57,601 nucleotides of DNA. It comes from Prorocentrum cordatum (Eukaryota). The notes below the pieces were generated by a model. It was not told the DNA's origin and made no database searches. It worked only from the letters and a program-made list of their open reading frames with translations. Positions 17,934 through 54,280 of this stretch are shown one piece after another. The stretch lies in NCBI GenBank assembly GCA_963575745.1, contig CAUYUJ010000012.1, positions 62,001-119,601 of the forward strand. The letters are read 5' to 3'. The position numbers and the translations under genes are program-made. Numbering within the stretch: the first letter of the stretch is position 1; every line of letters starts with the position of its first letter.

Positions 17934-18106
17934 TAACGACCTCGCCGCGCGGGCCCGTCCCCGCACGGCGCCCGGGCCCCCGAGGCCCGGGCTGCCGCTC
18001 GAGCACGGCCCGGCCCCCCCACACAAGCCGCGCGAGATGCCTTCGGGACGTCCCCCACCGGCTCACCACGCGGCGAGGTCGCCACCCCGCCTCGGGGGCC
18101 CACCGA

Positions 18107-43626: not shown

Positions 43627-45971
43627 CTTCGGCCGCCGAGCGGGAGCGATCGGGCGAGGCACCGGCAGCGGGGACAGCCGTGGCAGCGTCGACGGCGGCA
43701 GCGGATGGGATGGAGCCGTGGGGGGGGCGAGCGAGAGGGGCCCTGACCGAGCCCTTTGGGGAGAAGGGTGGAACAAATAAGGGAGACAAGAAACGGAGGA
43801 ATCGCGCGTCGCAGTCCAGGCACGATCTCTCCGATAGCACAACCTTAAGAAAATACATCCACTGGAGGGCGCACAACCCAAATGATGCAGGCTACTCTTC
43901 CTACGTCGAAGGACCCAAGCAAGGAAGCACGCAAAAAGACCACCGATGGAGCATGCAGGAACGTCCTGCCAATGAGCGCAGACGCCCGCAATCATCGCAG
44001 GTGTGGTGAGTGCGTCGCTCGAGCTGCCCCGACGGTTCCTCAAGCGGGCCCGATCGCCGCAGCAACTGGGCAGAGCTCTGCCTCAGAATGGGGTTCCCGC
44101 CTTGGCGTCGGCAACGCTCCTGCCTCTGAGTGGTGCTCGCACCTTGGCGCCAGCCAGTCCTGCCTCGAAGGGTGCTCTCGCCTCAGATCAGGCCATGCTC
44201 CTGCCTCGCAACGGTGGCGACACTCCTGCCTCAAAACTATGGCTTCGCCTCAACGCCACCCACACTCTTGCCTCTGATCGGCAGCAGAACGCGCAGCTGC
44301 AGCACAAAAGTAGCTGCAATAACAGCCTAACAGCAGCACTAGCGGCGTAAAAATACCAAAGGCAATAAGAACGGCATCAGCCACGGTAGCAGCCGCAGTG
44401 GAGGCAGCGGCGGCAGCAACAGGATCGGCAACCGGCGTGGAACAAGCAGCCGCAGTGGCAGCAGCAGTTGCAGCAGCAGCAGCACCGTCAGCGCTGACAG
44501 CAGGCAGTGACAGCAACGCACTGTCATTAAGTCGGGCCTGTCCTCCCCCAGGGGGATTGTGGACGAAAAATGAGAAATATTCCAAAAATGCCCCAAAATG
44601 GTCAAAAAAATCAGAAAAATCGTCCCCATACTATTGTTAGACTATTTTTGAATATTCCTCCTGTAGAGGGACAGGCGCGGCTGTCCCTGTACATAGAGGG
44701 TGGTATTGGGAAATACCAACCATAATAGTGATAATAACGATAATACAAAGTACGAATAGTAATAATAACAATAATACTAATAAAACTAAAAATTATAAGA
44801 AGAATAATAATAGGAATCGAAAAATAATAATAATACTAATGATAATACAGACATAGCAGATAGCTACCGCATACTCTTTTTTACAAAGATATGATGCTCA
44901 TAAGGTCGCCACATCAGTGATTGAGCTGGTTCTTGAACATCTGCCAGTGCCCTCGAGGTCCTCCACATTCGCCACCGCCATGACGGCATCCACAAGGTCT
45001 GGCCGGCTCAGCGCAGTGATTCCTGTCGGCCGCGATGGGTCTCATCTCGGTGCCCCTGGGGTCGCCGAGGGCGAACGGGGCCAACATCACGGTGGAGGAC
45101 GCCGCGATGGCGCGGGAGGTGGAGGAAGTCACAGGCAAATCTTCAGAATGAGCTGCTCCGCTGCCAAGCGAAAAAGCAAATGGTCGGGACGAGAAAAGGA
45201 TGATATTGCCCGAATGACAAGCAGAGATCACGTTTGGTCACAGTGGCCTATCACACTGTTGCGGGCGCGGCAAAGCTCTGAGAAGCCCAGACGGCACTGG
45301 ACAAGACGATATCAGGTACCGTTCGAACGGAGGGAGAAGGATCGAGGCGGGAGGAAGCGGAGGGAGGGAGGAGGGAGGAGTAGGGAGGGAGGACGAGGGA
45401 AAAAAGGAAGAGGGGGAGCTGCTCCACTGCATACACATAAGACTCTAAAAAGACGAGACTGGTACCCCCCCCCTGCCCAGGGGGTGGCGCACTGGAACCA
45501 CCTCCGACACCGCTGGGGAGGGCTTCCAAGCTGCCCAGCTGATGGGGAAGGGACTCCACGACGCTCGCTCGCACTCGCCGCCTCAGACGGGAGGGCGCAG
45601 GCAGGGCTGAGCAGCGCCAGAGGAGGAGGAGGAGGAGGAGGAGGAGGAGGAGGAGGCGGAGGAGGGGGAGGAGGAGAGGAGGAGGAGGAGGAGGAGGAGG
45701 GAGGAGGAGGAGGCCCCACTCTCCTCCTCCTCCTCCTCCTCCGCCTCCTCCTCCTCCTCCTCCTCCTCCTCCTCCTCCTCCTCCTCCTCCCAAGAACCGT
45801 TTGGCTCTGGCGTCCCATTTTGGGACCCTGGGGCCGCGCCGAGCCTCCGCGAGGCGTTCTTGGGGGCCGCGCGTGCCATAGGCCTGACGGGCCTGGCGGC
45901 GTGCGGTGCAGATTCGGCGCTTCAGAAGGTATCGGAGGCTTGCTTCTCGCTCTTCAGGTCTCTTGGGCACC

Positions 45972-47162
45972 ATGGGCCGTGGGGCTTCGCGTCGGCCCAG
46001 TTCTTCCCAGGGCAGGAAGCAGGCTTCCGTCGCTGCTCGCCCTTGGTCGCGGTGCTCCACGTGCCGCCGCTGCGAGTACGACGACATCCTCTTCGGCCAG
46101 AGCTGGAAGTGCGTCTGCGGGAGCCGCGTGACGCAGTACCGCCCGCCGTCCCAGCCGCGCTCTCGGGGACAGCACGGCGGCCGCTCGCGTGGCGATCCAG
46201 CTCCAGCAGCTCCCCCAGCCGACGTGAGCAACCCGCTCGAGGCCTTGCTGCGCCCAGGTGCCGCCTCGTCGGCCTCTTCAGGCCCTGTGCCGCCCGAGTT
46301 GCTGGCCGCTATGAAGGTGGTGGAGGCCCACGCGCAGGCGGCGGCGGAGCGGGCAGCCAAGCCCGCCAAGGCGCCATCGCCTGACGCTGCACTTCGCCGC
46401 GCTTCGGGCGAATGCCGCGATCTTCATCGCCGTCATCAGGCGGCCGTGGACCAAGTTCTTCGCTGCAGGAAAGCGCTCCTGCTGGCCGAGAATCGGGAGA
46501 AGGAAGTGGCCCTTCTTTTGGCCGAGGCGGAGGCCGCCAAGCAGAAGGCCGCCGCTGCTGTCGCTGCGCTTGGACCAGTCGCTGGCCCCGCCTCGACGAC
46601 CGCGCCTGCGGCTACTGCGCCTGCGGCTTCGGCGGAGTCAGGCGACCTCTTCTCCTTGCATTGGGACGATGCGGTGTTCGACGAGGGCGTCCTCTGCGAG
46701 CTCGATCCCGACGAGCAGGCCACGTTGGCCGCGCTGAGGAAGGAGCTGCTCGCGGCGAAGGACCTGTTGCAGTCGCACTCGAGCGAGGTCCGCGTGAAGC
46801 TCACCGCGGCCAAGCAGCTCGCCGCCATGGGCCGGCAGAGGATGGCCAAGAAGCGGAAGAGCGACGCTGACGGGGCGCCAGCTGGACAGGCCGCTGCCGA
46901 GAGCTCCGCGGCCACTCCTCGGGTGCGCTTCGAGGACTCGCCTCCTGCCGCGGGCGCGTCTGCTGGAGCGAGCTCGTCCCCCGACGAGGCTTCGCTGGCA
47001 GCCGCTGCAGCCAAACTCAGCCAGGCTAAGTTCGCCGCGGCGCAGCAGGCCGCCGCCGCCACCTCTGCTGCTGGGCCCTCAGCCACGTCGTCAGCGCCTG
47101 CAGCGGGCCCAGGCAGTCCCTCCTTGGCGTCGGCGGCCGGCGCTGAGGACAGCGGCCTTTGA
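45972..47162 (+). CDS. LINE ORF1 (~396 aa from first ATG): N-terminal Cys motif and Ala-rich coiled coil
   Basis: WSRCSTC...WKCVCG putative zinc finger, helical E/A/K-rich segments, position upstream of pol. Confidence 0.8.
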   Translation: MGRGASRRPSSSQGRKQASVAARPWSRCSTCRRCEYDDILFGQSWKCVCGSRVTQYRPPSQPRSRGQHGGRSRGDPAPAAPPADVSNPLEALLRPGAASSASSGPVPPELLAAMKVVEAHAQAAAERAAKPAKAPSPDAALRRASGECRDLHRRHQAAVDQVLRCRKALLLAENREKEVALLLAEAEAAKQKAAAAVAALGPVAGPASTTAPAATAPAASAESGDLFSLHWDDAVFDEGVLCELDPDEQATLAALRKELLAAKDLLQSHSSEVRVKLTAAKQLAAMGRQRMAKKRKSDADGAPAGQAAAESSAATPRVRFEDSPPAAGASAGASSSPDEASLAAAAAKLSQAKFAAAQQAAAATSAAGPSATSSAPAAGPGSPSLASAAGAEDSGL

Positions 47163-50100
47163 CGCCAGGCACAGCCAGCGGCGTGGGACGACGCCGCTGG
47201 CGCGGCTGCGACGAGGCCCTCTCAGCCGCCCAGTTTTGATCACGTACGCGACGCCAGCTCGGCAGACGCAGTCGCAGCCGACTGCTCGGGGTCAGCCGCT
47301 GCTTGCGCAGGCGTTTCCACAAGGGTAACCACTGGTGGCCATGCATCTCACGGGGAGCTCATTGTTGACGGGGTTCAGGTCAACAGAGATGCGCCATCTG
47401 ACGGGCAGACTCGCAACCTCTTTTTCGCGAACATCACTGCGATGGGGCCGCAGGCTTGGGAGTTCGTGCAGAGGGGTTGCTCGAGCTACGACTACGTTGG
47501 CTTCGTCGAGACTCACGTAGGGAATGAGTCCGCACTCAATGAATGGAGCCGCAAGGCTCGCTCAGCTGGTTGGCGTCTTCACGGGAATCTCTCCCGCAGT
47601 ACTGGGGCTGGCGGAACTGAAGGTGGCGAATGGTGGCTTACGAGGCGACACTTGCACACTCACATGCTGGCTGCAGCTCACTCGAGTCGCGATCTTCGTG
47701 CTCCCAGCGCGGCCGCCTCGGACGGCTTCCAGGCCAGCGTGCTGCACATGAAGGGCTACGCCGTGGTGGTCATCGCCTTTTACGCCTTCGCGTCGGTGGG
47801 CTGGAGTGGGGCGAACCTTCGCCGCTTCGCTCATCTCGGCGCACTCCTCTCGGCGCTTCAGCTCCCCTGGTTGGTCATGGGCGATTTCAACATCGAGGCC
47901 TCGACCCTGGAGCGCACGGGCTTTGTCACCCGCGTCGGCGGCCACATCATCCAGAGCTCGGCCCACTACACGTGCGCAGCTGGCCAGGGAGGATCTCACA
48001 TTGACTTCGGGCTCGCCTCCTCGTCATGTCTTCCCTACATCCTCACCATGAGCGACATCCAGGCGGTACCATGGAAAACTCACTGCGGCTTGCAGGTTCA
48101 ACTTCGTGGACGTGGAGAGCAGTTGGTTACGCGGAAGTTGGTGGTTCCTCAGCCCCTGCCCGCTTGTTCGAGACCTTCGCCTCCGCCCACGTCTTCAGCC
48201 AAGCGTCAGGACGCTCTTCTTCGTCGAGCGGCTGCTCGGGAACGTCGCGAAGACTTTCTAGGTAAGACCTTTGGTCGCACCTGGGAAGGCGAGCCTCGCA
48301 CGGACGTGTCCACGGACGTCGCCTCCGACGGCGAGCTCCTCTCCTCCAGCGATGACTCCGAGTCATGGGCTGTCGCAGTTGAGAGTCGAGCCATACGCAC
48401 GGCCGAGGTTGCAGCGCCCCCCGCGAGGGAGAGAGGCGCTCCCTCGGTTTCTTCATGTACTCCTCACACACGCAGTCTTTCCACTTACGCGACGCCACCG
48501 CTGCTGGTCGGCGAGCTTGGCCAGGCCTCGAGCTCAACCCCCACGGGTGCCCCTTCACGGTTATCCACCATGGACGATGCCGATGCTGACCCGTTCGCGG
48601 ACGTCGACGCTCCCATGCCCATCGACGACGGCTGGCCCGAGCCGCCCGAGTTCGAGCAGGAGGACCCCGAGGTCGGTCAGGATCGCACGCAGGAGAGCTG
48701 GGCTGGCGGAGATCTGTCTCGGGGCCTCCCTCACCCTGGGGCGAGGCAACCACAGTCTGGTTCTTCCCGCAGCGACCTGCCCCACCTTGGGCGGCCCCAC
48801 ACCCCGTCGCTCGACCAGGACGTCAGTTTCGAGGTCTCCGAGTCTACCTGGTTGCGTGCAGCTGGCGTACCTGCCCCTGCCGTTGCAGTCTGGCCACCCA
48901 TTGCTTCGTCGGACGCCTACCGTGTTGGCGGCGCGGCCATCGACGGCATCAGCGCGGACTACGCTCGCTGGGTCAGGCAGCTCGAAGGCGCAGTTCGGCG
49001 GCACTCTCGTCTTGCCGAACTTGGTGACGGGCCCTCCCGTGCGGACGGCGTCCGCCTTCGTGAATGTGCCGTGGCGACCCCAGCCGTGGCCATTGCGGCG
49101 GAGGTCTCCGACGAGGAGGCCTCGCTCAGCTGGTGGGCCGCCCTGCACACGCTCCTCGTCAAGCTCCTGCACTTCACCAAGTGCACGTCGCGGGCTGCGC
49201 GATCCCACCCTGGTCACGAGGCAGAACGTCGACGCGCAGCTGCTGAATGCCGTCGCCTCGCCCAGGATCGGCCACCTCATGCGCGCCGAGCCTTCGTTGG
49301 AGGTGCTCTTCGTCGGCGGCCTGTTCAGGCTGGTCAGGGCGCCCCGAGGTTATCGTGGCATGGCTTCCTACGGGAGCTTCGCGCCCTGCTTCGTGCGCCC
49401 ATCCACCTCCTGGAGCATCTCGAGGAGCTCGTGCAGAAGTGCCTTCGCCGCGGGCGAGGTCGCGCTGTCGGGGCATCCTTGAGGTCTTTCAAGGAGTGGA
49501 TCGTCACGCCGCAGGGTTCGACGGTGCTCTTCAGAACGCTGAAAAGCCAGCCTGTCCTGGCCGACGAGCTCCTCGACCCCACAAGCAGCCTGCACCTCGT
49601 CCATCCGAAGGATCTCGTCGACCTCAAGGCCCGCACTTGGCACGAGTTGTGGGCGCCGTCGCAGGTGGACACGTCGCTCGTGGACGGTTTCTGGCTCGAA
49701 CTACGGCAGCTCCTTGGTGAAGGCGATCTCCCTGAGCTCGACGTGGTTCAATTACGCAGCGCCTTGCGGCGCATGCGCCCACGCGCAGGACGAGGCGCCG
49801 ACCAACTTCGGCCGACGGATGTCGAACGGCTTCCTGATTGCGGCTTGGAGGAGCTCCTGCGGTTGTATCGGGCCTGCGAGCACGGCGGAAGCTGGCCCTG
49901 GCAGCTTTTGATTGTTGTCGGCCAGCTTCTTGCGAAGAAGTCGGGTGGCGAGCGTGTCATTGGCTTGATGTGCATGATCACCAGGATCTGGAGCCAGGCT
50001 CGCGAACCAGTGGTGCAGGACTGGAGCCAGGAGAGCGCGCCCCCGTGGGACGCCGCCGTCCGCGGCAATGCCGCCATCTTCGAGGCCTTCGCGCGCGCGA

Positions 50101-53100
50101 CCGACGAGGAAGCGTACAGCACCTTGGGCTTCGCGTACGCTCACGCCATGCTGGACGTGAAGTCGTTCTACGACTCTATGGACTGGGTCAAGCTCGGCCG
50201 CGCCGCGCTTCGGCTCGGGTTCCCTCCCACCATGCTCGCCCTCGAGCTGCAGCTCTGTCTGGCTCCTCGCGTGCTGGTACGAGATGGCGCAGCTTCGCAG
50301 GCGTTCCAGCCGTCCCGCTCCATTGTTCAGGGACTGCGGTCTGGCACTCGCTTCGCCCGCTGCTTGACCCACTTCATCCTGGACTCCATTACTCGGCAGC
50401 GCCCACAGGGTCTTCTACCGCCACGCATCTGGGTCGACGACTTATCCCAGGCCGCCGTGGGCACCGAGACCGTCGTGGAGCAGACGCTCACCCACGTCGT
50501 GGACGAGACGTGTGCGCTGTTCGAGGGCGACGGGCTTTCCATCTCGCCGAAGAGCGTCATCATCGCCAACCGTCGTGGGCTTGCCAGGCGCATCATGGAG
50601 TCCCTCAGGAGCCGTGGGCACATCGTCACTGCCACCAAGTGCGCCCCGTGCTTAGGAGTTGATTTGGGAGCTGGCCTGGGCCTTCGCCGTCCCACACGCA
50701 CAATCCGTCTCAAGAAAGCCGCCAGTGGGCACGCGCGAGTGCGCCGTTTCGTTCGGGCCAGCAGGCGCTACGCCACGTGCGCCAGGATCGAACGAGCATC
50801 CCCGCAAGCAGCAGGCAGCTACGGTCACCAGGTTTACGGAACTCCGCCGTCCCTTCTGTTGCAGGCTCGTCGTCGCCTCGGTGCTGTCAGCTCCGCAGCC
50901 GGCGGCGGCAAGTGCTTGACCACAGTGCTCCAGCTACGCCACGATCATCACGATCCAGCACGCAGCTTCGCCAGGCAACAGCTGGAGCTCTGGTTTCGTG
51001 CCTGGCGTAGTGACCCTGACTTTCGGCGGCGAGTCCAGCAAGCGTGGATCCCTATCCACGCCAGGTTGCGGGACACTCCGTCGGCGCAGCGTCATCGCCA
51101 CGTTCGAGGCCCGATCTCCGCTCTCATGACCTTGCTGATGGAGTACTCCTGGGACCCCGTCGGCCCGTGCGGCTGGGTATGTCATCTGGGAGCTGGAGCA
51201 TGGGAACGCTGGACCTTCCCCGACGCGAGCGCCCTCTCCGACCGTGAGATTCGTCAGCTCACCAGCGCCTTCGACGCCTCCATCCTCGCGCAGCTATGGG
51301 AGGCCGCCTCTACCCACTGGTGCGGCGAGGGGCTTCAGTTCGGCACGGACCTCACTTCGTATCGCCATTTGGTTCGCTCTCTCGAGAGGTCCCGCCACTC
51401 GCACTTGGCCCCGCTCATGGTCTCCATCGCGGCAGGGGGCTCGTGGCCAGGTTCGCGTCTTCTGGACACCGACTCCGTACGGGATGGATTTCATGGCCTT
51501 TGTCCTCGTTGCGGGCATGAAGTCGAGACGCCTGTTCATCGGATGTGGACGTGCGAGGCCAACAGCGACTCTCCCGCGTACCGCATGAGCAGTCACTTGG
51601 TTTCTCGAGCAGTGGCCGAGTCCGACGCGTACCCGTGCTTCTGGCTCCGTGGCCTTCTCCCATCGCCGTGGGTCGACGTTCCACCCCCGATCGAGCATCC
51701 CGAGTGGACACCTATCGGTCTCTCCGACGACGACTGGAGCTTCGGCCAAGGGTCTGTTCAGGCCCCCCTCATGCTGTTCGGAGACGCGAGTGGAGGCTGC
51801 GACTCCATGGTACCGAGGTTGCGGCGAGTGGGCGTGGCCGTTTGCCGTATGCAGCCTGATGCCGTGGACATCGAGTTCGGGCTCTTCGGTCCTCTCCCTG
51901 GCCAGTCCCAGACAGTTCATCGAGGAGAGCTTCAAGCGCTAGTATTGGGAGCACGGTATTCGACAGGGGCCACGGTTTTCGTGACGGACAACCTGGCTGT
52001 TTGCGAAGGTTGGTGGGCTCGTCTGGACCTCGCACCCCACCAGTCCAGCACGGAGTCCGACTTGTGGCAGGAGTTGCAGCAGATTTTCCTCACCCGCCCG
52101 CGCTCCGAGTTCACCGTCGAGCACGTCAATTCTCACTTGACTCCAGCCGCCGCCCAAGCTGCAGGTGTCCCTCACGCGGTGGTACGCGGGAATGCAGTTG
52201 CCGACATCCTGGCGGGGGCCGCTGCAGGTCTGGCCCGTGTCCCTCACGAACCTCGCCAGCGCTTCTTTGCCCACGAGGTCATGGCGTCGCAGGTCCGCTG
52301 GAGGCTCCTCCGAGCCACGCTGGATGCCCAGGCAGCTGCCACTCTCCGTGCTCGTGGTCTACCCCGCCGACGTCGTCGTCCACGCCAGGCTCCTCCCCGT
52401 CTGCGGTCTGTTGCCACGTTTGCCTCTCGCCACGTCCTCAGCGATGATGGTTTACGTTGTCTGGCCTGTCACACGTCTGCGGGCCACTCCAGTGCTGACT
52501 TCTGGTTGGTGTCTCCGTGCGTTCCGTTGATTTCTTGTGGAGAAGGATGGGCAGGTTTCGCACCGTCTGTGGCCGCTCTCGTGCACATCGGCGACCACGC
52601 TGTTCATCCCACGCACATGATGAGGTTCCAGACTACGCTTGGAGTATGGATCTGTTGGCATTGCGGGTGTTACGCTTGGCCAGGTCTTCGTGCTCTAGGC
52701 CGCGGTCTCCTCGTCTCATGCCAGAGCCCGACCGACATGGGGCGCGAGCACCTCTCCAGAGTCCACCGCGGTCTGTGGCCCAAGGCTGGTGAACGTCCCA
52801 GTTCCGAGAGCTACGACGACGCCCCGCAGACCTGCGCTACGTCCTCGGGGGAGTTGTCAGAACGCAAGGGATGCCTCGAGAGCGGAGGGGGCCTTCGGGT
52901 CCCCGCTGCTGGGGGACCTCCCGCCCCGAGGCCTGGTAAGGTCGCCAACCCCCCTGCCTCGACGACGTTCTCGCTGGACCGTAGGGGTCCGAGGACGAGG
53001 GGGAAGGTGCGTAGCCAGGCCTCAAATTTGGGAGGTATTCGTCGCCTCGAGGATTCGCCCCCGAGGACGGCTGGGGATCGGTCTGGCCACAGTGTCTCGC

Positions 53101-53597
53101 TCCAGGTGGACGACGAAGGACGTGCTCAGCTGGTCGCTTCCCTGGTCCGAGCTGCTACAAGGGACCCTTCGGACCCTTCGGCAACTGCGTCCGCTCCAGC
53201 CCCGCCCGATTCGACCGCTGCGGGAGCCCCCTGTTGTTCCAGAATGCTTTTGTCGGCGACTGGGTCATCGAGGACTGGACGCTGTTCGGGGTCTGGGAGT
53301 TCGGCCCCTTTGCCACGGCGAATTTCACGGTCTCCATCCAAGCCTCCCATACGAGAGGAGGGCGGTCACTCGCCTCACGACCTCGAGGGCCTCGCGGACT
53401 GCGACACCAGGCCCCTGGCGGAGGACGGCAGCGGCGCGCGAGGGCCCACCGCGGTGCCCACCGCGCCGAGCGCGCTGCCGCCGCGCGGCGCCCAGGCGGC
53501 CGCTTTCAGCGCGCTCGTGCGCTGGGCGGCGGGCGGCTCGCCACGTCGACGCAGTGCTCCTGGCGCTGGACGCCGCGCTGCTCGTCCAGGTCATTAG
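47163..53597 (+). CDS. LINE ORF2: APE endonuclease, reverse transcriptase, Cys/His motifs, RNase H (frame open from 47163, first ATG at 47442)
   Basis: APE: FFANIT, FVETH, VMGDFN, HIDF, KTH. RT: LDVKSFYD, QGLRSG, IWVDD (50430-50441), CLGVDL. CPRC...HRMWTC. RNase H: FGDAS, RGELQA, VTDN, HVNSH, GNAVADILA. C-terminal WICWHCG. Confidence 0.95.
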   Translation, partial: RQAQPAAWDDAAGAAATRPSQPPSFDHVRDASSADAVAADCSGSAAACAGVSTRVTTGGHASHGELIVDGVQVNRDAPSDGQTRNLFFANITAMGPQAWEFVQRGCSSYDYVGFVETHVGNESALNEWSRKARSAGWRLHGNLSRSTGAGGTEGGEWWLTRRHLHTHMLAAAHSSRDLRAPSAAASDGFQASVLHMKGYAVVVIAFYAFASVGWSGANLRRFAHLGALLSALQLPWLVMGDFNIEASTLERTGFVTRVGGHIIQSSAHYTCAAGQGGSHIDFGLASSSCLPYILTMSDIQAVPWKTHCGLQVQLRGRGEQLVTRKLVVPQPLPACSRPSPPPTSSAKRQDALLRRAAARERREDFLGKTFGRTWEGEPRTDVSTDVASDGELLSSSDDSESWAVAVESRAIRTAEVAAPPARERGAPSVSSCTPHTRSLSTYATPPLLVGELGQASSSTPTGAPSRLSTMDDADADPFADVDAPMPIDDGWPEPPEFEQEDPEVGQDRTQESWAGGDLSRGLPHPGARQPQSGSSRSDLPHLGRPHTPSLDQDVSFEVSESTWLRAAGVPAPAVAVWPPIASSDAYRVGGAAIDGISADYARWVRQLEGAVRRHSRLAELGDGPSRADGVRLRECAVATPAVAIAAEVSDEEASLSWWAALHTLLVKLLHFTKCTSRAARSHPGHEAERRRAAAECRRLAQDRPPHARRAFVGGALRRRPVQAGQGAPRLSWHGFLRELRALLRAPIHLLEHLEELVQKCLRRGRGRAVGASLRSFKEWIVTPQGSTVLFRTLKSQPVLADELLDPTSSLHLVHPKDLVDLKARTWHELWAPSQVDTSLVDGFWLELRQLLGEGDLPELDVVQLRSALRRMRPRAGRGADQLRPTDVERLPDCGLEELLRLYRACEHGGSWPWQLLIVVGQLLAKKSGGERVIGLMCMITRIWSQAREPVVQDWSQESAPPWDAAVRGNAAIFEAFARATDEEAYSTLGFAYAHAMLDVKSFYDSMDWVKLGRAALRLGFPPTMLALELQLCLAPRVLVRDGAASQAFQPSRSIVQGLRSGTRFARCLTHFILDSITRQRPQGLLPPRIWVDDLSQAAVGTETVVEQTLTHVVDETCALFEGDGLSISPKSVIIANRRGLARRIMESLRSRGHIVTATKCAPCLGVDLGAGLGLRRPTRTIRLKKAASGHARVRRFVRASRRYATCARIERASPQAAGSYGHQVYGTPPSLLLQARRRLGAVSSAAGGGKCLTTVLQLRHDHHDPARSFARQQLELWFRAWRSDPDFRRRVQQAWIPIHARLRDTPSAQRHRHVRGPISALMTLLMEYSWDPVGPCGWVCHLGAGAWERWTFPDASALSDREIRQLTSAFDASILAQLWEAASTHWCGEGLQFGTDLTSYRHLVRSLERSRHSHLAPLMVSIAAGGSWPGSRLLDTDSVRDGFHGLCPRCGHEVETPVHRMWTCEANSDSPAYRMSSHLVSRAVAESDAYPCFWLRGLLPSPWVDVPPPIEHPEWTPIGLSDDDWSFGQGSVQAPLMLFGDASGGCDSMVPRLRRVGVAVCRMQPDAVDIEFGLFGPLPGQSQTVHRGELQALVLGARYSTGATVFVTDNLAVCEGWWARLDLAPHQSSTESDLWQELQQIFLTRPRSEFTVEHVNSHLTPAAAQAAGVPHAVVRGNAVADILAGAAAGLARVPHEPRQRFFAHEVMASQVRWRLLRATLDAQAAATLRARGLPRRRRRPRQAPPRLRSVATFASRHVLSDDGLRCLACHTSAGHSSADFWLVSPCVPLISCGEGWAGFAPSVAALVHIGDHAVHPTHMMRFQTTLGVWICWHCGCYAWPGLRALGRGLLVSCQSPTDMGREHLSRVHRGLWPKAGERPSSESYDDAPQTCATSSGELSERKGCLESGGGLRVPAAGGPPAPRPGKVANPPASTTFSLDRRGPRTRGKVRSQASNLGGIRRLEDSPPRTAGDRSGHSVSLQVDDEGRAQLVASLVRAATRDPSDPSATASAPAPPDSTAAGAPCCSRMLLSATGSSRTGRCSGSGSSAPLPRRISRSPSKPPIREEGGHSPHDLEGLADCDTRPLAEDGSGARGPTAVPTAPSALPPRGAQAAAFSALVRWAAGGSPRRRSAPGAGRRAARPGH

Positions 53598-54280
53598 GAC
53601 GGAGGTCCCTCTTCTCTCAGGGGGGCACCTCCGTCCTGCGCCGCGCTATGGCGCGCCGCGGCGCCCGCGGTCCGCGGGCGGCCGTGCGCGGACCGCACCT
53701 GTGCGTCCGCGTAGCGGTGTCCTCACTCACTCACTCACTCACTCCTCCTCCTCCTCCTCCTCCTCCTCCTCCTCCCTCCTCCTCCTCCTCCTCCTCCTCC
53801 TCCTCCTCCTCCTTTCTCTCCACTCCTCCTCCTCCTCCTCCTCCTCCTCCTCCTCCTCCTCCTCCTCCTCGTCCTCATCCTCCTCCTCTTCCTCCTCCTC
53901 CTCCTCCTCCTCTCCCTTCCTCCTCCTCCTCCTTCTCCTCCTCCTCCTCCTCCTCCTGGTCTGGTCTGGTCTGATCTGGTCTGGTCTGGTCCTCGGCAGC
54001 AAAATGCACATGGACGCCGGCACGAACGTATACACGGCCGACAGTCTTCCCTGAGAGGAAATCGCAGATGTATACCGTAGTAGTGTTTTTGGCCCGAGAA
54101 GGCTAAGGCAACGAACTCACTCCTGGCTTAGGCAAGTCCCAGGCGGGCCGAGCATGCGTGTCAAGGTGCGCCCGAGTGCATTAGCGGAGCAAGAAAACAC
54201 ATCATCCCCATCCTTCTTTCTCCACCTACTCCTCCTTCCTGACGAGGCCGGTGCAGTGACGGTCACGCTAAGGGGGTCGC

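What the first reader, a model, noticed from the sequence alone, without database searches (positions are those of the whole stretch)
47160..47445. LINE ORF1 and ORF2 in one frame, separated by a single UGA-C plus a perfect hairpin: candidate programmed readthrough
Seen: ORF1 ends at TGA 47160-47162. The same frame continues for 93 codons with no stop and no ATG until 47442. The first APE motif (NLFFANIT, with the conserved Asn) lies upstream of that ATG, so initiating there would truncate the endonuclease. Eleven nt after the stop is a perfect 11-bp GC-rich stem, GCCAGCGGCGT-gggacg-ACGCCGCTGGC (47174-47201). Known: UGA followed by C is the leakiest stop context, and 3' structures stimulate readthrough in gammaretroviral gag-pol and alphaviruses, whereas characterised LINEs mostly use reinitiation or overlapping ORFs. 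Inference: this LINE makes a ~2540-aa ORF1-ORF2 fusion by readthrough.
Basis: partly seen in the sequence, partly recalled or inferred. Interest (0 to 1): 0.82.

Follow-up and report, generated by a model that had tools for sequence, protein, structure and literature searches.

The report
Dinoflagellate LINE with in-frame stop and hairpin
An intact jumping gene in a dinoflagellate genome has its two genes in one reading frame, split by a single UGA stop followed by the element's strongest RNA hairpin, so the ribosome may read through that stop, but no related DNA copy could be checked.

Summary
A full-length non-LTR retrotransposon lies at 45791-53957. ORF1 is 396 aa and ends at TGA 47160-47162. 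The same frame then runs 2144 codons to TAG 53595-53597, and TGA occurs only once in the 2541 codons.

No in-frame ATG, GTG, TTG or CTG lies in the 93-codon spacer. The first in-frame ATG (47442) falls after the first beta-strand and the conserved Asn of the endonuclease. Two out-of-frame ATGs precede it.

The 11-bp hairpin (47174-47201, starting at +15 from the U of UGA) is the most stable 30-nt and 40-nt fold of the whole element.

The stop is not a private mutation. A 62%-identical ORF1 ends at the same aligned residue, and three families of directly called ORF1 proteins (11 sequences) also end shortly after the conserved motif.

Programmed UGA readthrough is my leading explanation (about 0.45) but is unproven. 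No DNA of sister copies could be obtained, so conservation of the TGA, the frame and the stem is untested. An open in-frame spacer is expected by chance about 1 time in 10. Relatives' ORF2 calls start with their own Met. SART1/L1-like reinitiation without an AUG is the main rival.

The parts
45721..45790 (.). (CTC)23 microsatellite abutting the 5' end of the element, preceded by (GAG)31 at 45620-45713. Probably the insertion target or an older tail.
   Evidence: Tandem Repeats Finder; sequence read
45791..45971 (+). Presumed 5' UTR, from the end of the microsatellite to the ORF1 ATG. The boundary is inferred.
   Evidence: no spliced-leader relic within 3 mismatches anywhere in the window
45972..47162 (+). 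ORF1, 396 aa plus TGA. The start context is caccATGg. It has an N-terminal Cys motif (WSRCSTCRRCEY...CVCG), a coiled-coil-like middle, the motifs MAKKRK and LSQAKF, and the C-terminus ...AEDSGL.
   Evidence: relatives; no Pfam family
47160..47162 (+). The single in-frame UGA, in the context CUU UGA CGC.
   Evidence: codon counts in the frame are TGA 1, TGG 59
47163..47441 (+). 93-codon spacer, open in the ORF1/ORF2 frame, with no ATG, GTG, TTG or CTG in frame. The other two forward frames have 1 and 3 stops. Out-of-frame ATGs lie at 47341 and 47389.
   Evidence: for the ATG positions
47174..47201 (+). Perfect 11-bp GC-rich hairpin with a 6-nt loop. Its first paired base is at +15 counting the U of UGA as +1. 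It encodes PAAWDDAAG if translated.
47202..47229 (+). Second, weaker hairpin (7 + 2 bp) directly abutting the first.
   Evidence: MFE and centroid structure
47163..53597 (+). ORF2 frame: 2144 sense codons plus TAG.
47409..48107 (+). Apurinic-like endonuclease (APE/EEP) domain. Its first strand, TRNLFFAN, lies upstream of the first ATG.
   Evidence: Pfam PF03372 at 21 bits, below the 24.5 cut-off; model pLDDT 89.8; Foldseek hits to ExoIII, human L1 EN, TRAS1 EN and R1Bm EN, E about 1e-8 to 1e-10
49932..50489 (+). Reverse transcriptase core.
   Evidence: Pfam RVT_1 at 19-21 bits, below the 29.6 cut-off
51885..52226 (+). RNase H-like region.
   Evidence: Pfam RNase_H at 15.5 bits, below the 25.8 cut-off, E 0.02
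53598..53721 (+). Highly structured 3' UTR, with a long hairpin directly after the ORF2 stop.
   Evidence: fold of 53440-53745: z = -5.3, 0 of 100 shuffles as stable; the most stable 60- and 90-nt windows of the element start at 53445-53480
53722..53957 (+). 3' tail: (CTCA)5.8 followed by (CTC)73.

Best explanation
This is an intact, recently active non-LTR retrotransposon (ORF1, then APE-RT-RNase H ORF2, with a structured 3' UTR and a (CTC)n tail) of a dinoflagellate. Most ribosomes stop at the UGA and make the 396-aa ORF1 protein. A minority decode UGA with a near-cognate tRNA and continue through the 93-codon spacer. That gives a roughly 2540-aa ORF1-ORF2 fusion carrying a complete endonuclease. 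The leak is promoted by the UGA-C context and by the very stable hairpin that meets the ribosome's mRNA entry channel while the stop is in the A site. The logic is the gag-pol ratio of gammaretroviruses.

Shown here: the anatomy, the lack of an AUG, how exceptional the hairpin is, and that the ORF1 stop is old. Inferred: that readthrough occurs, that the hairpin stimulates it, and that the fusion is the active ORF2 form.
For: 1. ORF1 and the 2144-codon ORF2 share one frame, with one TGA in 2541 codons.
2. There is no in-frame ATG, GTG, TTG or CTG between the stop and the endonuclease. The first in-frame ATG (47442) lies after beta-strand 1 and after the Asn present in 16 of the 16 covering rows. 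Two out-of-frame ATGs (47341, 47389) come first, so scanning or reinitiation at an AUG would give a truncated enzyme or the wrong frame.
3. The hairpin is rank 1 of 7595 (30 nt) and rank 1 of 7585 (40 nt) windows of the element, and one of 3 such loci in 57571 windows of the + strand. My arithmetic puts the chance of one starting within about 12 nt of a given site at about 6e-4.
4. The stem starts at +15 after UGA CGC. The table in the review PMC13517186 (passages seen) lists UGA CGG or UGA CUA with structures starting at +12 (VEEV, CTFV; MoMLV with UAG), +16 (SINV) and +9/+13 (CHIKV).
5. The stop is ancient.
   - P0005 (62% identical ORF1) ends ...AEDRDL, in the same aligned column as the window's ...AEDSGL.
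   - A second copy of that family, inside gene model P0064, has its homology end at the same residue.
   - Direct ORF calls on ENA/JGI contigs end in the same region: 5 of 5 members of the P0090 cluster end ...DDGL, 2 of 2 of P0082 and 4 of 4 of P0139.
6. The family is multicopy and under purifying selection. 25 of the 40 listed variable places are third codon positions (only 40 of 464 rows were shown).
7. Two contigs from two other studies bridge the stop and the hairpin with 0 gaps, so the frame relation is kept there: X2 record 9 (46972-47242) and X3 record 16 (46802-47233).
Against: 1. Nothing shows that the TGA or the stem is kept in sister copies. The differences table was cut before this region, and no relative's DNA was obtained.
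2. An in-frame, open spacer is expected about 1 time in 10 by chance.
3. Direct ORF2 calls of related families start with a Met 14-45 residues before the first endonuclease motif. These are P0043 (5 of 7 cluster members are 1729 aa, on contigs of 6410-6517 nt), P0087 (6 of 6 are 1676 aa) and P0146. Five of the 16 shorter calls start 1-4 residues before the motif. This suggests separate ORF2 initiation in the wider group, although these Met may be GTG or TTG chosen by a gene caller.
4. The +4 to +6 context is CGC, not the canonical CGG or CUA.
5. A 111-nt fold is unexceptional (z = -0.97) and 90-nt windows rank only 326 of 7535. There is no long extended stem as in alphaviruses.
6. A downstream structure also supports stop-start coupling in SART1.
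7. No LINE is known to me to use readthrough. The fusion would have no protease to release ORF2p.
Confidence: 0.45

Rival explanations
1. Termination-coupled, AUG-independent reinitiation or non-AUG initiation. Ribosomes finish ORF1, the hairpin stalls or tethers the post-termination 40S subunit, and translation restarts nearby on a non-AUG codon (for example ACG 47211 or ATT 47361). ORF2p is then made as a separate protein. This resembles SART1 stop-start coupling and the unconventional ORF2 translation of mammalian L1.
For: - SART1 coupling needs a structure downstream of the stop-start site, and L1 ORF2 is made by an unconventional termination-reinitiation (PMC5972666 passages; PMC2951350 passage).
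- Human L1 ORFs are separated by a 63-bp spacer with two in-frame stops, so in-frame ORFs need not mean readthrough (PMC5860796 passage).
- Related families appear to have their own ORF2 start.
- In-frame near-cognate codons exist: ACG 47211, 10 nt past the stem, and ATT 47361.
- The open in-frame spacer is not strong evidence.
Against: - There is no AUG or stop-start overlap at the junction. The only overlapping UUG (47159-47161) is out of frame.
- Zorro3, a tested LINE, needs its first ORF2 ATG (PMC1965478 passage).
- The two out-of-frame AUGs at 47341 and 47389 would capture scanning subunits before any start near the endonuclease.
Confidence: 0.27
2. ORF2 of this copy, or of its recent sub-lineage, is not translated at all. 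The copy has lost an ORF2 start codon that its master had, or depends on ORF2p supplied in trans. The hairpin then has another role (RNA packaging or stability) or is fortuitous.
For: - Relatives' ORF2 calls begin with Met close to the endonuclease, whereas this copy has none.
- Only one copy could be examined at the DNA level.
- In-frame plus open is about 0.1 by chance.
Against: - ORF2 is open for 2144 codons, while the other two forward frames carry 29 and 34 stops. The copy is therefore young or selected.
- The family shows third-position-biased variation (25 of 40).
- The hairpin's rank-1 stability exactly at the junction is hard to credit to chance.
- LINE ORF2 proteins act preferentially in cis (established knowledge, recalled).
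Confidence: 0.12
3. The UGA is removed at the RNA level or is not real. Either mRNA editing (reported for this species) changes UGA to a sense codon in part of the transcripts, or the TGA is an assembly or allelic variant of a single-ORF element.
For: - The multi-omics paper on the species mentions mRNA editing in a figure legend (PMC10666404 passage).
- All 8 proteins that fuse ORF1 to the endonuclease without a stop come from this species.
Against: - Those 8 fused proteins are all eukaryotic gene models that allow introns. The model made on this very window (P0003) is demonstrably an artificial splice of 45035-45118 onto 45942-47048.
- ORF1 ends at the same residue in a 62%-identical family and in direct ORF calls. 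That is a DNA-level stop.
Confidence: 0.06
4. UGA is decoded as an amino acid by rule, either as selenocysteine or through a reassigned genetic code.
For: A hairpin just after UGA recalls selenocysteine redefinition elements (recalled). One parasitic dinoflagellate relative is reported to read stops as sense (PMC11453091 passage).
Against: - No SECIS or any other relevant Rfam family at E <= 1 in 45700-54000.
- TGA occurs once against 59 TGG in the frame.
- The same review passage says dinoflagellates otherwise use standard codons.
- Relatives' ORF1 calls stop here.
Confidence: 0.02

Closest known systems
Gammaretroviral gag-pol readthrough (MoMLV UAG plus pseudoknot)
   Same: A structural or RNA-binding protein lies upstream and the enzymes lie downstream in the same frame, split by one stop. 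A stable 3' structure begins about a dozen nucleotides after the first base of the stop (+12 in MoMLV, +15 here; PMC13517186 passages). The result is a low ratio of enzyme to structural protein.
   Different: Here the stop is UGA rather than UAG. The structure is a simple 11-bp hairpin (plus an abutting second one) rather than an H-type pseudoknot. The element is a non-LTR element with no protease to cut the fusion. Nothing has been tested experimentally.
Type II viral readthrough (alphaviruses, coltivirus: UGA CGG or UGA CUA plus a stem-loop)
   Same: UGA is followed by C (here UGA CGC). The structure start lies within the tabulated +12 to +16 range. Leu precedes the stop, as in ONNV and CHIKV (table).
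   Different: The third downstream base differs (CGC, not CGG). The viral stems are 68-177 nt extended structures, whereas here the exceptional stability is confined to about 30-60 nt.
SART1 (Bombyx mori LINE) UAAUG translational coupling
   Same: A LINE in which ORF2 expression depends on events at the ORF1 stop and on a secondary structure downstream of it (PMC5972666 passage).
   Different: SART1 has an overlapping stop-start (UAAUG). Here there is no AUG for 279 nt, and the ORFs are in the same frame.
Human LINE-1
   Same: ORF1 and ORF2 are separated by a short spacer with in-frame stops (63 bp, two stops; PMC5860796 passage). ORF2 is made rarely, by an unconventional mechanism (PMC2951350 passage). 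The endonuclease fold is similar (Foldseek E about 5e-10 to 7n8k and 8sp7).
   Different: L1 ORF2 has its own AUG before the endonuclease and two stops. Here there is one stop, a 93-codon open spacer, no AUG and a strong hairpin. ORF1 has no detectable L1-type domains (no Pfam hit).
Zorro3 (Candida albicans L1-like LINE)
   Same: A two-ORF LINE with an inter-ORF region that affects retrotransposition.
   Different: Changing the first ORF2 ATG to ACG cut retrotransposition to below 5% (PMC1965478 passage), so it uses conventional start-codon-dependent ORF2 initiation.

Membership tests
Non-LTR (LINE) retrotransposon with APE-type endonuclease | N-terminal apurinic-like endonuclease fold in ORF2 | tested here: met
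   Model pLDDT 89.8. Foldseek E 2e-10 to 1e-8 to ExoIII, human L1 EN, TRAS1 EN and R1Bm EN. The Pfam hit is below its cut-off (21 against 24.5 bits).
Non-LTR (LINE) retrotransposon with APE-type endonuclease | Reverse transcriptase domain downstream of the endonuclease in the same ORF | tested here: inconclusive
   RVT_1 scores 19-21 bits, below the 29.6 cut-off. No PDB sequence match at E <= 0.01. Long relatives (1676-1889 aa) share the architecture.
Non-LTR (LINE) retrotransposon with APE-type endonuclease | No LTRs; a 3' tail of simple repeat; multicopy in the genome | tested here: met
   (CTCA)n(CTC)n tail. No second copy or long direct repeat of the element in the window. 137 contigs of run X1 and 12-33 contigs of three other runs lie on it at 80% likeness or more.
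Programmed stop-codon readthrough (type II/III signal) | Leaky stop context (UGA followed by C; canonical CGG or CUA) | tested here: inconclusive
   UGA CGC: +4 C and +5 G match, +6 does not (table).
Programmed stop-codon readthrough (type II/III signal) | Stable 3' RNA structure starting about +12 to +16 | tested here: met
   The stem starts at +15. It is rank 1 of 7595 and of 7585 local folds.
Programmed stop-codon readthrough (type II/III signal) | Stop, downstream frame and structure conserved among relatives, with coding-type substitution after the stop | not testable with these tools
   Stop position is conserved at the protein level. Two bridging contigs have 0 gaps. No relative's DNA was available to test the frame, the stem or the spacer.
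Programmed stop-codon readthrough (type II/III signal) | Measured readthrough product | not testable with these tools
   Needs a reporter assay, ribosome profiling or peptides.
SART1-type stop-start translational coupling | Overlapping or adjacent stop and in-frame start codon (UAAUG) | tested here: not met
   No ATG within 279 nt in frame. The UUG overlapping the stop is out of frame.
Selenocysteine recoding | SECIS element in the 3' UTR | tested here: not met
   No SECIS family at E <= 1 in 45700-54000.

The most novel reading that the evidence does not exclude
A whole clade of dinoflagellate LINEs expresses its endonuclease-RT as an ORF1-ORF2 fusion. It does so by programmed UGA readthrough, driven by a conserved acidic-Gly/Asp-Leu-UGA-C signal plus a downstream hairpin. 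This would be a gag-pol-like strategy evolved independently in non-LTR elements, and the first recoding signal described in dinoflagellates.
Probability: 0.3. Interest if true: 0.8.

Novelty: new variant of a known kind. Interest (0 to 1): 0.6.

Why it matters
How LINEs translate their second ORF is still only partly understood. The documented routes I could read about are stop-start coupling, unconventional reinitiation and 2A peptides. My four literature searches on the point returned no paper reporting a LINE that uses stop-codon readthrough. Apart from the reviews, I judged them only from the listed titles and abstract starts, and most subscription papers are not held.

If this family does use readthrough, three things follow:
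- Readthrough would extend from retroviruses and RNA viruses to non-LTR elements.
- It would show an ORF1-ORF2 fusion that works without a protease.
- It would provide a compact, natural recoding signal (UGA-C plus an 11-bp stem) from an organism group in which translation control is believed to dominate gene regulation and genetic tools are scarce.

It also bears on annotation. Gene models of this species splice around such stops and create chimeric proteins.

Tried and rejected
**Searches for DNA of relatives**
- No whole genome is held for the window.
- There is no second copy in the window (blastn and tblastn).
- Metagenome contigs: 2 scans gave 270 and 597 pattern matches, none confirmed.
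- Viral contigs: 4 scans empty.
- Prokaryote genome contigs: 2 scans empty.

**Word-based protein searches**
- 3 of 3 were used. They found only the window's own gene model P0003. The Ala-rich words swamped the candidate lists.

**Sequencing runs**
- No RNA holder is listed.
- The one read-laying run showed only 40 of 464 difference rows, none in 46800-47600. It therefore says nothing on the TGA or the stem.

**Other searches that led nowhere**
- Earlier findings of this scan: nothing.
- Rfam at E <= 1: only three weak miRNA-like hits, in the GAG/CTC repeat.
- ESM Atlas for ORF1: no usable hit.
- PDB by sequence for ORF2: none.
- Spliced-leader relic: none within 3 mismatches.

**Measures and readings rejected**
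- GC3 by codon position does not separate the spacer from coding or untranslated parts, so I rejected it as a test.
- The 8 fused ORF1-endonuclease proteins are not evidence for a sense codon, because all are intron-allowing gene models.
- TGA as a sense codon is rejected.

**Not confirmed**
- I recall, but could not confirm in the held library, that some plant LINEs were described with in-frame ORFs split by one stop. The paper of Alisch et al. 2006 is not held.


Full report
**1. What is there**

The window holds one full-length non-LTR retrotransposon on the + strand. A (GAG)31/(CTC)23 microsatellite ends at 45790. The element body runs 45791-53721 and is followed by (CTCA)5.8(CTC)73 up to 53957.

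ORF1 starts at ATG 45972 (caccATGg) and ends at TGA 47160-47162. The same frame is then open for 2144 codons up to TAG 53595-53597. Read with TGA=X, the 2541-position frame has a single X, at 397.

ORF2 domains:
- An endonuclease whose AlphaFold model (pLDDT 89.8) matches ExoIII, human L1 EN, TRAS1 EN and R1Bm EN.
- A weak RVT_1 hit.
- A weak RNase H hit.

ORF1 has no Pfam family. The window's ORF1 is 99-100% identical to a protein that NCBI names as from the dinoflagellate Prorocentrum cordatum. The species' genome paper reports 59.7% G+C (PMC10666404 passage), which fits the 58-68% seen around the element.

**2.

- The spacer 47163-47441 is 93 sense codons without ATG, GTG, TTG or CTG in frame. 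The other two forward frames have 1 and 3 stops.
- The first in-frame ATG (47442) lies after beta-strand 1 (TRNLFFAN) and after the Asn found in 16 of the 16 alignment rows that cover it. Starting there would truncate the enzyme.
- Two out-of-frame ATGs (47341, 47389) precede it.
- The 11-bp stem 47174-47201 is perfect, and a second hairpin abuts it at 47202-47229.

**3. What is and is not beyond chance**

| Feature | Result |
|---|---|
| Hairpin, 30-nt windows in the element | rank 1 of 7595 (-25.8 against mean -6.6, sd 3.1 kcal/mol) |
| Hairpin, 40-nt windows | rank 1 of 7585 |
| Hairpin, 60-nt windows | rank 5 of 7565; only the 3' end of the element folds better |
| Hairpin, 90-nt windows | rank 326 of 7535 |
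| Loci this stable in the window's + strand | 3 in 57571 windows |
| 93-codon windows open in the other two forward frames | 33% and 29% |
| 111-nt fold around the site | z = -0.97 |

So the hairpin is the outstanding local structure of the element. The open spacer is weak evidence: in frame plus open is about a 1-in-10 event by my arithmetic.

**4. The stop is old, not private**

An exhaustive HMMER search with ORF1 + spacer + endonuclease found 992 relatives at E <= 0.001; the best 150 were listed.

- P0005 (62% identical over ORF1) ends ...AEDRDL, in the same aligned column as the window's ...AEDSGL.
- A second copy of that family sits inside the chimeric gene model P0064. Its homology ends at that residue.
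- Three families of ORF1-only proteins were called directly on ENA/JGI contigs of 1.4-4.4 kb. They end 17-38 residues after the conserved motif (LSxAKF or its counterpart):
  - 5 of 5 members of the P0090 cluster end ...DDGL.
  - 2 of 2 members of the P0082 cluster end ...DPDLTA.
  - 4 of 4 members of the P0139 cluster end ...PSSGS.
- The acidic-Gly/Asp-Leu end is shared by the window, P0005 and P0090, although the 30-40 residues before it are not conserved.

**5. Evidence on activity**

Contigs from four runs in four studies lie on the element at 80-99% likeness. Of the 40 listed variable places, 25 are third codon positions. Only 40 of 464 rows were shown, all of them between 47606 and 50576.

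Two contigs from two other studies bridge the stop and both hairpins with 0 gaps: X2 record 9 (46972-47242, 14 differences) and X3 record 16 (46802-47233, 22 differences). The frame relation is therefore kept there. Whether they keep the TGA or the stem was not displayed.

**6. Evidence against, or neutral**

- All 8 proteins that join ORF1 to the endonuclease without a stop are intron-allowing gene models of the same species (P0014, P0015, P0016, P0025, P0033, P0109, P0143, P0149).
- The model made on this window (P0003) is an artificial splice of 45035-45118 onto 45942-47048. These fusions therefore prove nothing either way.
- Directly called ORF2 proteins of related families begin with a Met 14-45 residues before the first endonuclease motif. 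P0043 has 5 of 7 cluster members at 1729 aa on contigs of 6410-6517 nt. P0087 has 6 of 6 at 1676 aa. P0146 is 1889 aa.
- 5 of the 16 shorter calls begin 1-4 residues before the motif.
- If those Met are real AUGs, the wider group initiates ORF2 separately, and this family's lack of an AUG is a derived state.

**7. Mechanism**

Readthrough is the simplest route to a complete endonuclease in this copy.
- The context is UGA-C.
- The stem starts at +15. This is inside the +12 to +16 range tabulated for VEEV, CTFV, SINV and MoMLV (PMC13517186 passages).

I give readthrough 0.45.

The main rival (0.27) is termination-coupled restart on a non-AUG codon.
- In SART1 a downstream structure drives stop-start coupling.
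- Human L1 has in-frame ORFs split by two stops, yet uses an unconventional restart.
- Against this rival: there is no stop-start overlap, out-of-frame AUGs intervene, and Zorro3 needs its ATG.

Smaller rivals:
- A copy whose ORF2 is silent (0.12).
- RNA editing or a sequence error at the UGA (0.06).
- Sec or a reassigned code (0.02). No SECIS was found, and the frame holds TGA 1 against TGG 59.

**8. Novelty**

My four searches of the held literature on this point, and the passages read from two reviews, turned up no LINE shown or proposed to use stop-codon readthrough. I only recall, unconfirmed, old descriptions of in-frame single-stop plant LINEs. I rate this a new variant of a known kind: a known recoding mechanism in a class of elements where it is not established.

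**9. What remains open**

Everything that needs DNA of relatives is untested: conservation of the TGA, of the frame, of the stem with compensatory changes, and coding-type evolution of the spacer. Every route to such DNA was tried and was empty or capped. The junction part of the difference table was not shown.

Noticed in passing
window 45620-45790 and 53722-53991: The element sits between (CTC)n arrays: (GAG)31 + (CTC)23 directly upstream, and (CTCA)5.8 + (CTC)73 + (CTGGT)7 downstream. This looks like a LINE with a microsatellite tail that inserted into, or primes on, a matching (CTC)n target.
   Followed up: partly
window 53440-53745: The end of ORF2 and the 3' UTR fold exceptionally well (-192 kcal/mol, z = -5.3, 0 of 100 shuffles). 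They hold the most stable 60- and 90-nt windows of the element, including a long hairpin right after the TAG. This is likely the 3' recognition structure for the element's reverse transcriptase.
   Followed up: partly
window 45035-47048: The public gene model P0003 is an artificial chimera. Its residues 1-28 map to 45035-45118 and residues 33-407 to 45942-47048. It skips the true ORF1 start and stops short of the ORF1 end. Gene models of this species that fuse LINE parts should be read with care.
   Followed up: yes
ORF1 C-termini: window 47142-47159; proteins P0005, P0090, P0153-P0156: The last residues before the stop are alike in relatives of 33-62% identity (acidic residues, then Gly/Asp-Leu, then the stop), while the preceding 30-40 residues are not conserved. 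This may be part of a termination or recoding signal, or a C-terminal function of ORF1p.
   Followed up: partly
window 1-1607 and 7924-10331: Two very long trinucleotide arrays of complementary type, (ATC) about 536 copies and (TAG) about 800 copies. They explain the extreme GC skews of -0.60 and +0.70.
   Followed up: no
window 3070-3921 and 4849-5910: Two arrays of a 75-nt satellite (11 and 14 copies, with a 150/438-nt higher-order period), and a 432-nt duplication at 6635-7513.
   Followed up: no
window 12398-12427 and 17967-17996: These are the only two other 30-nt stretches of the + strand that fold as stably as the junction hairpin (-25.9 and -26.3 kcal/mol). Their context was not examined.
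   Followed up: no
proteins P0014, P0015, P0149 (gene models of the same species): In three fused ORF1-endonuclease models the linker just before the endonuclease is a Leu/Val-rich hydrophobic stretch. It could be a translated artefact of a conserved RNA element or of a mis-spliced region.
   Followed up: no
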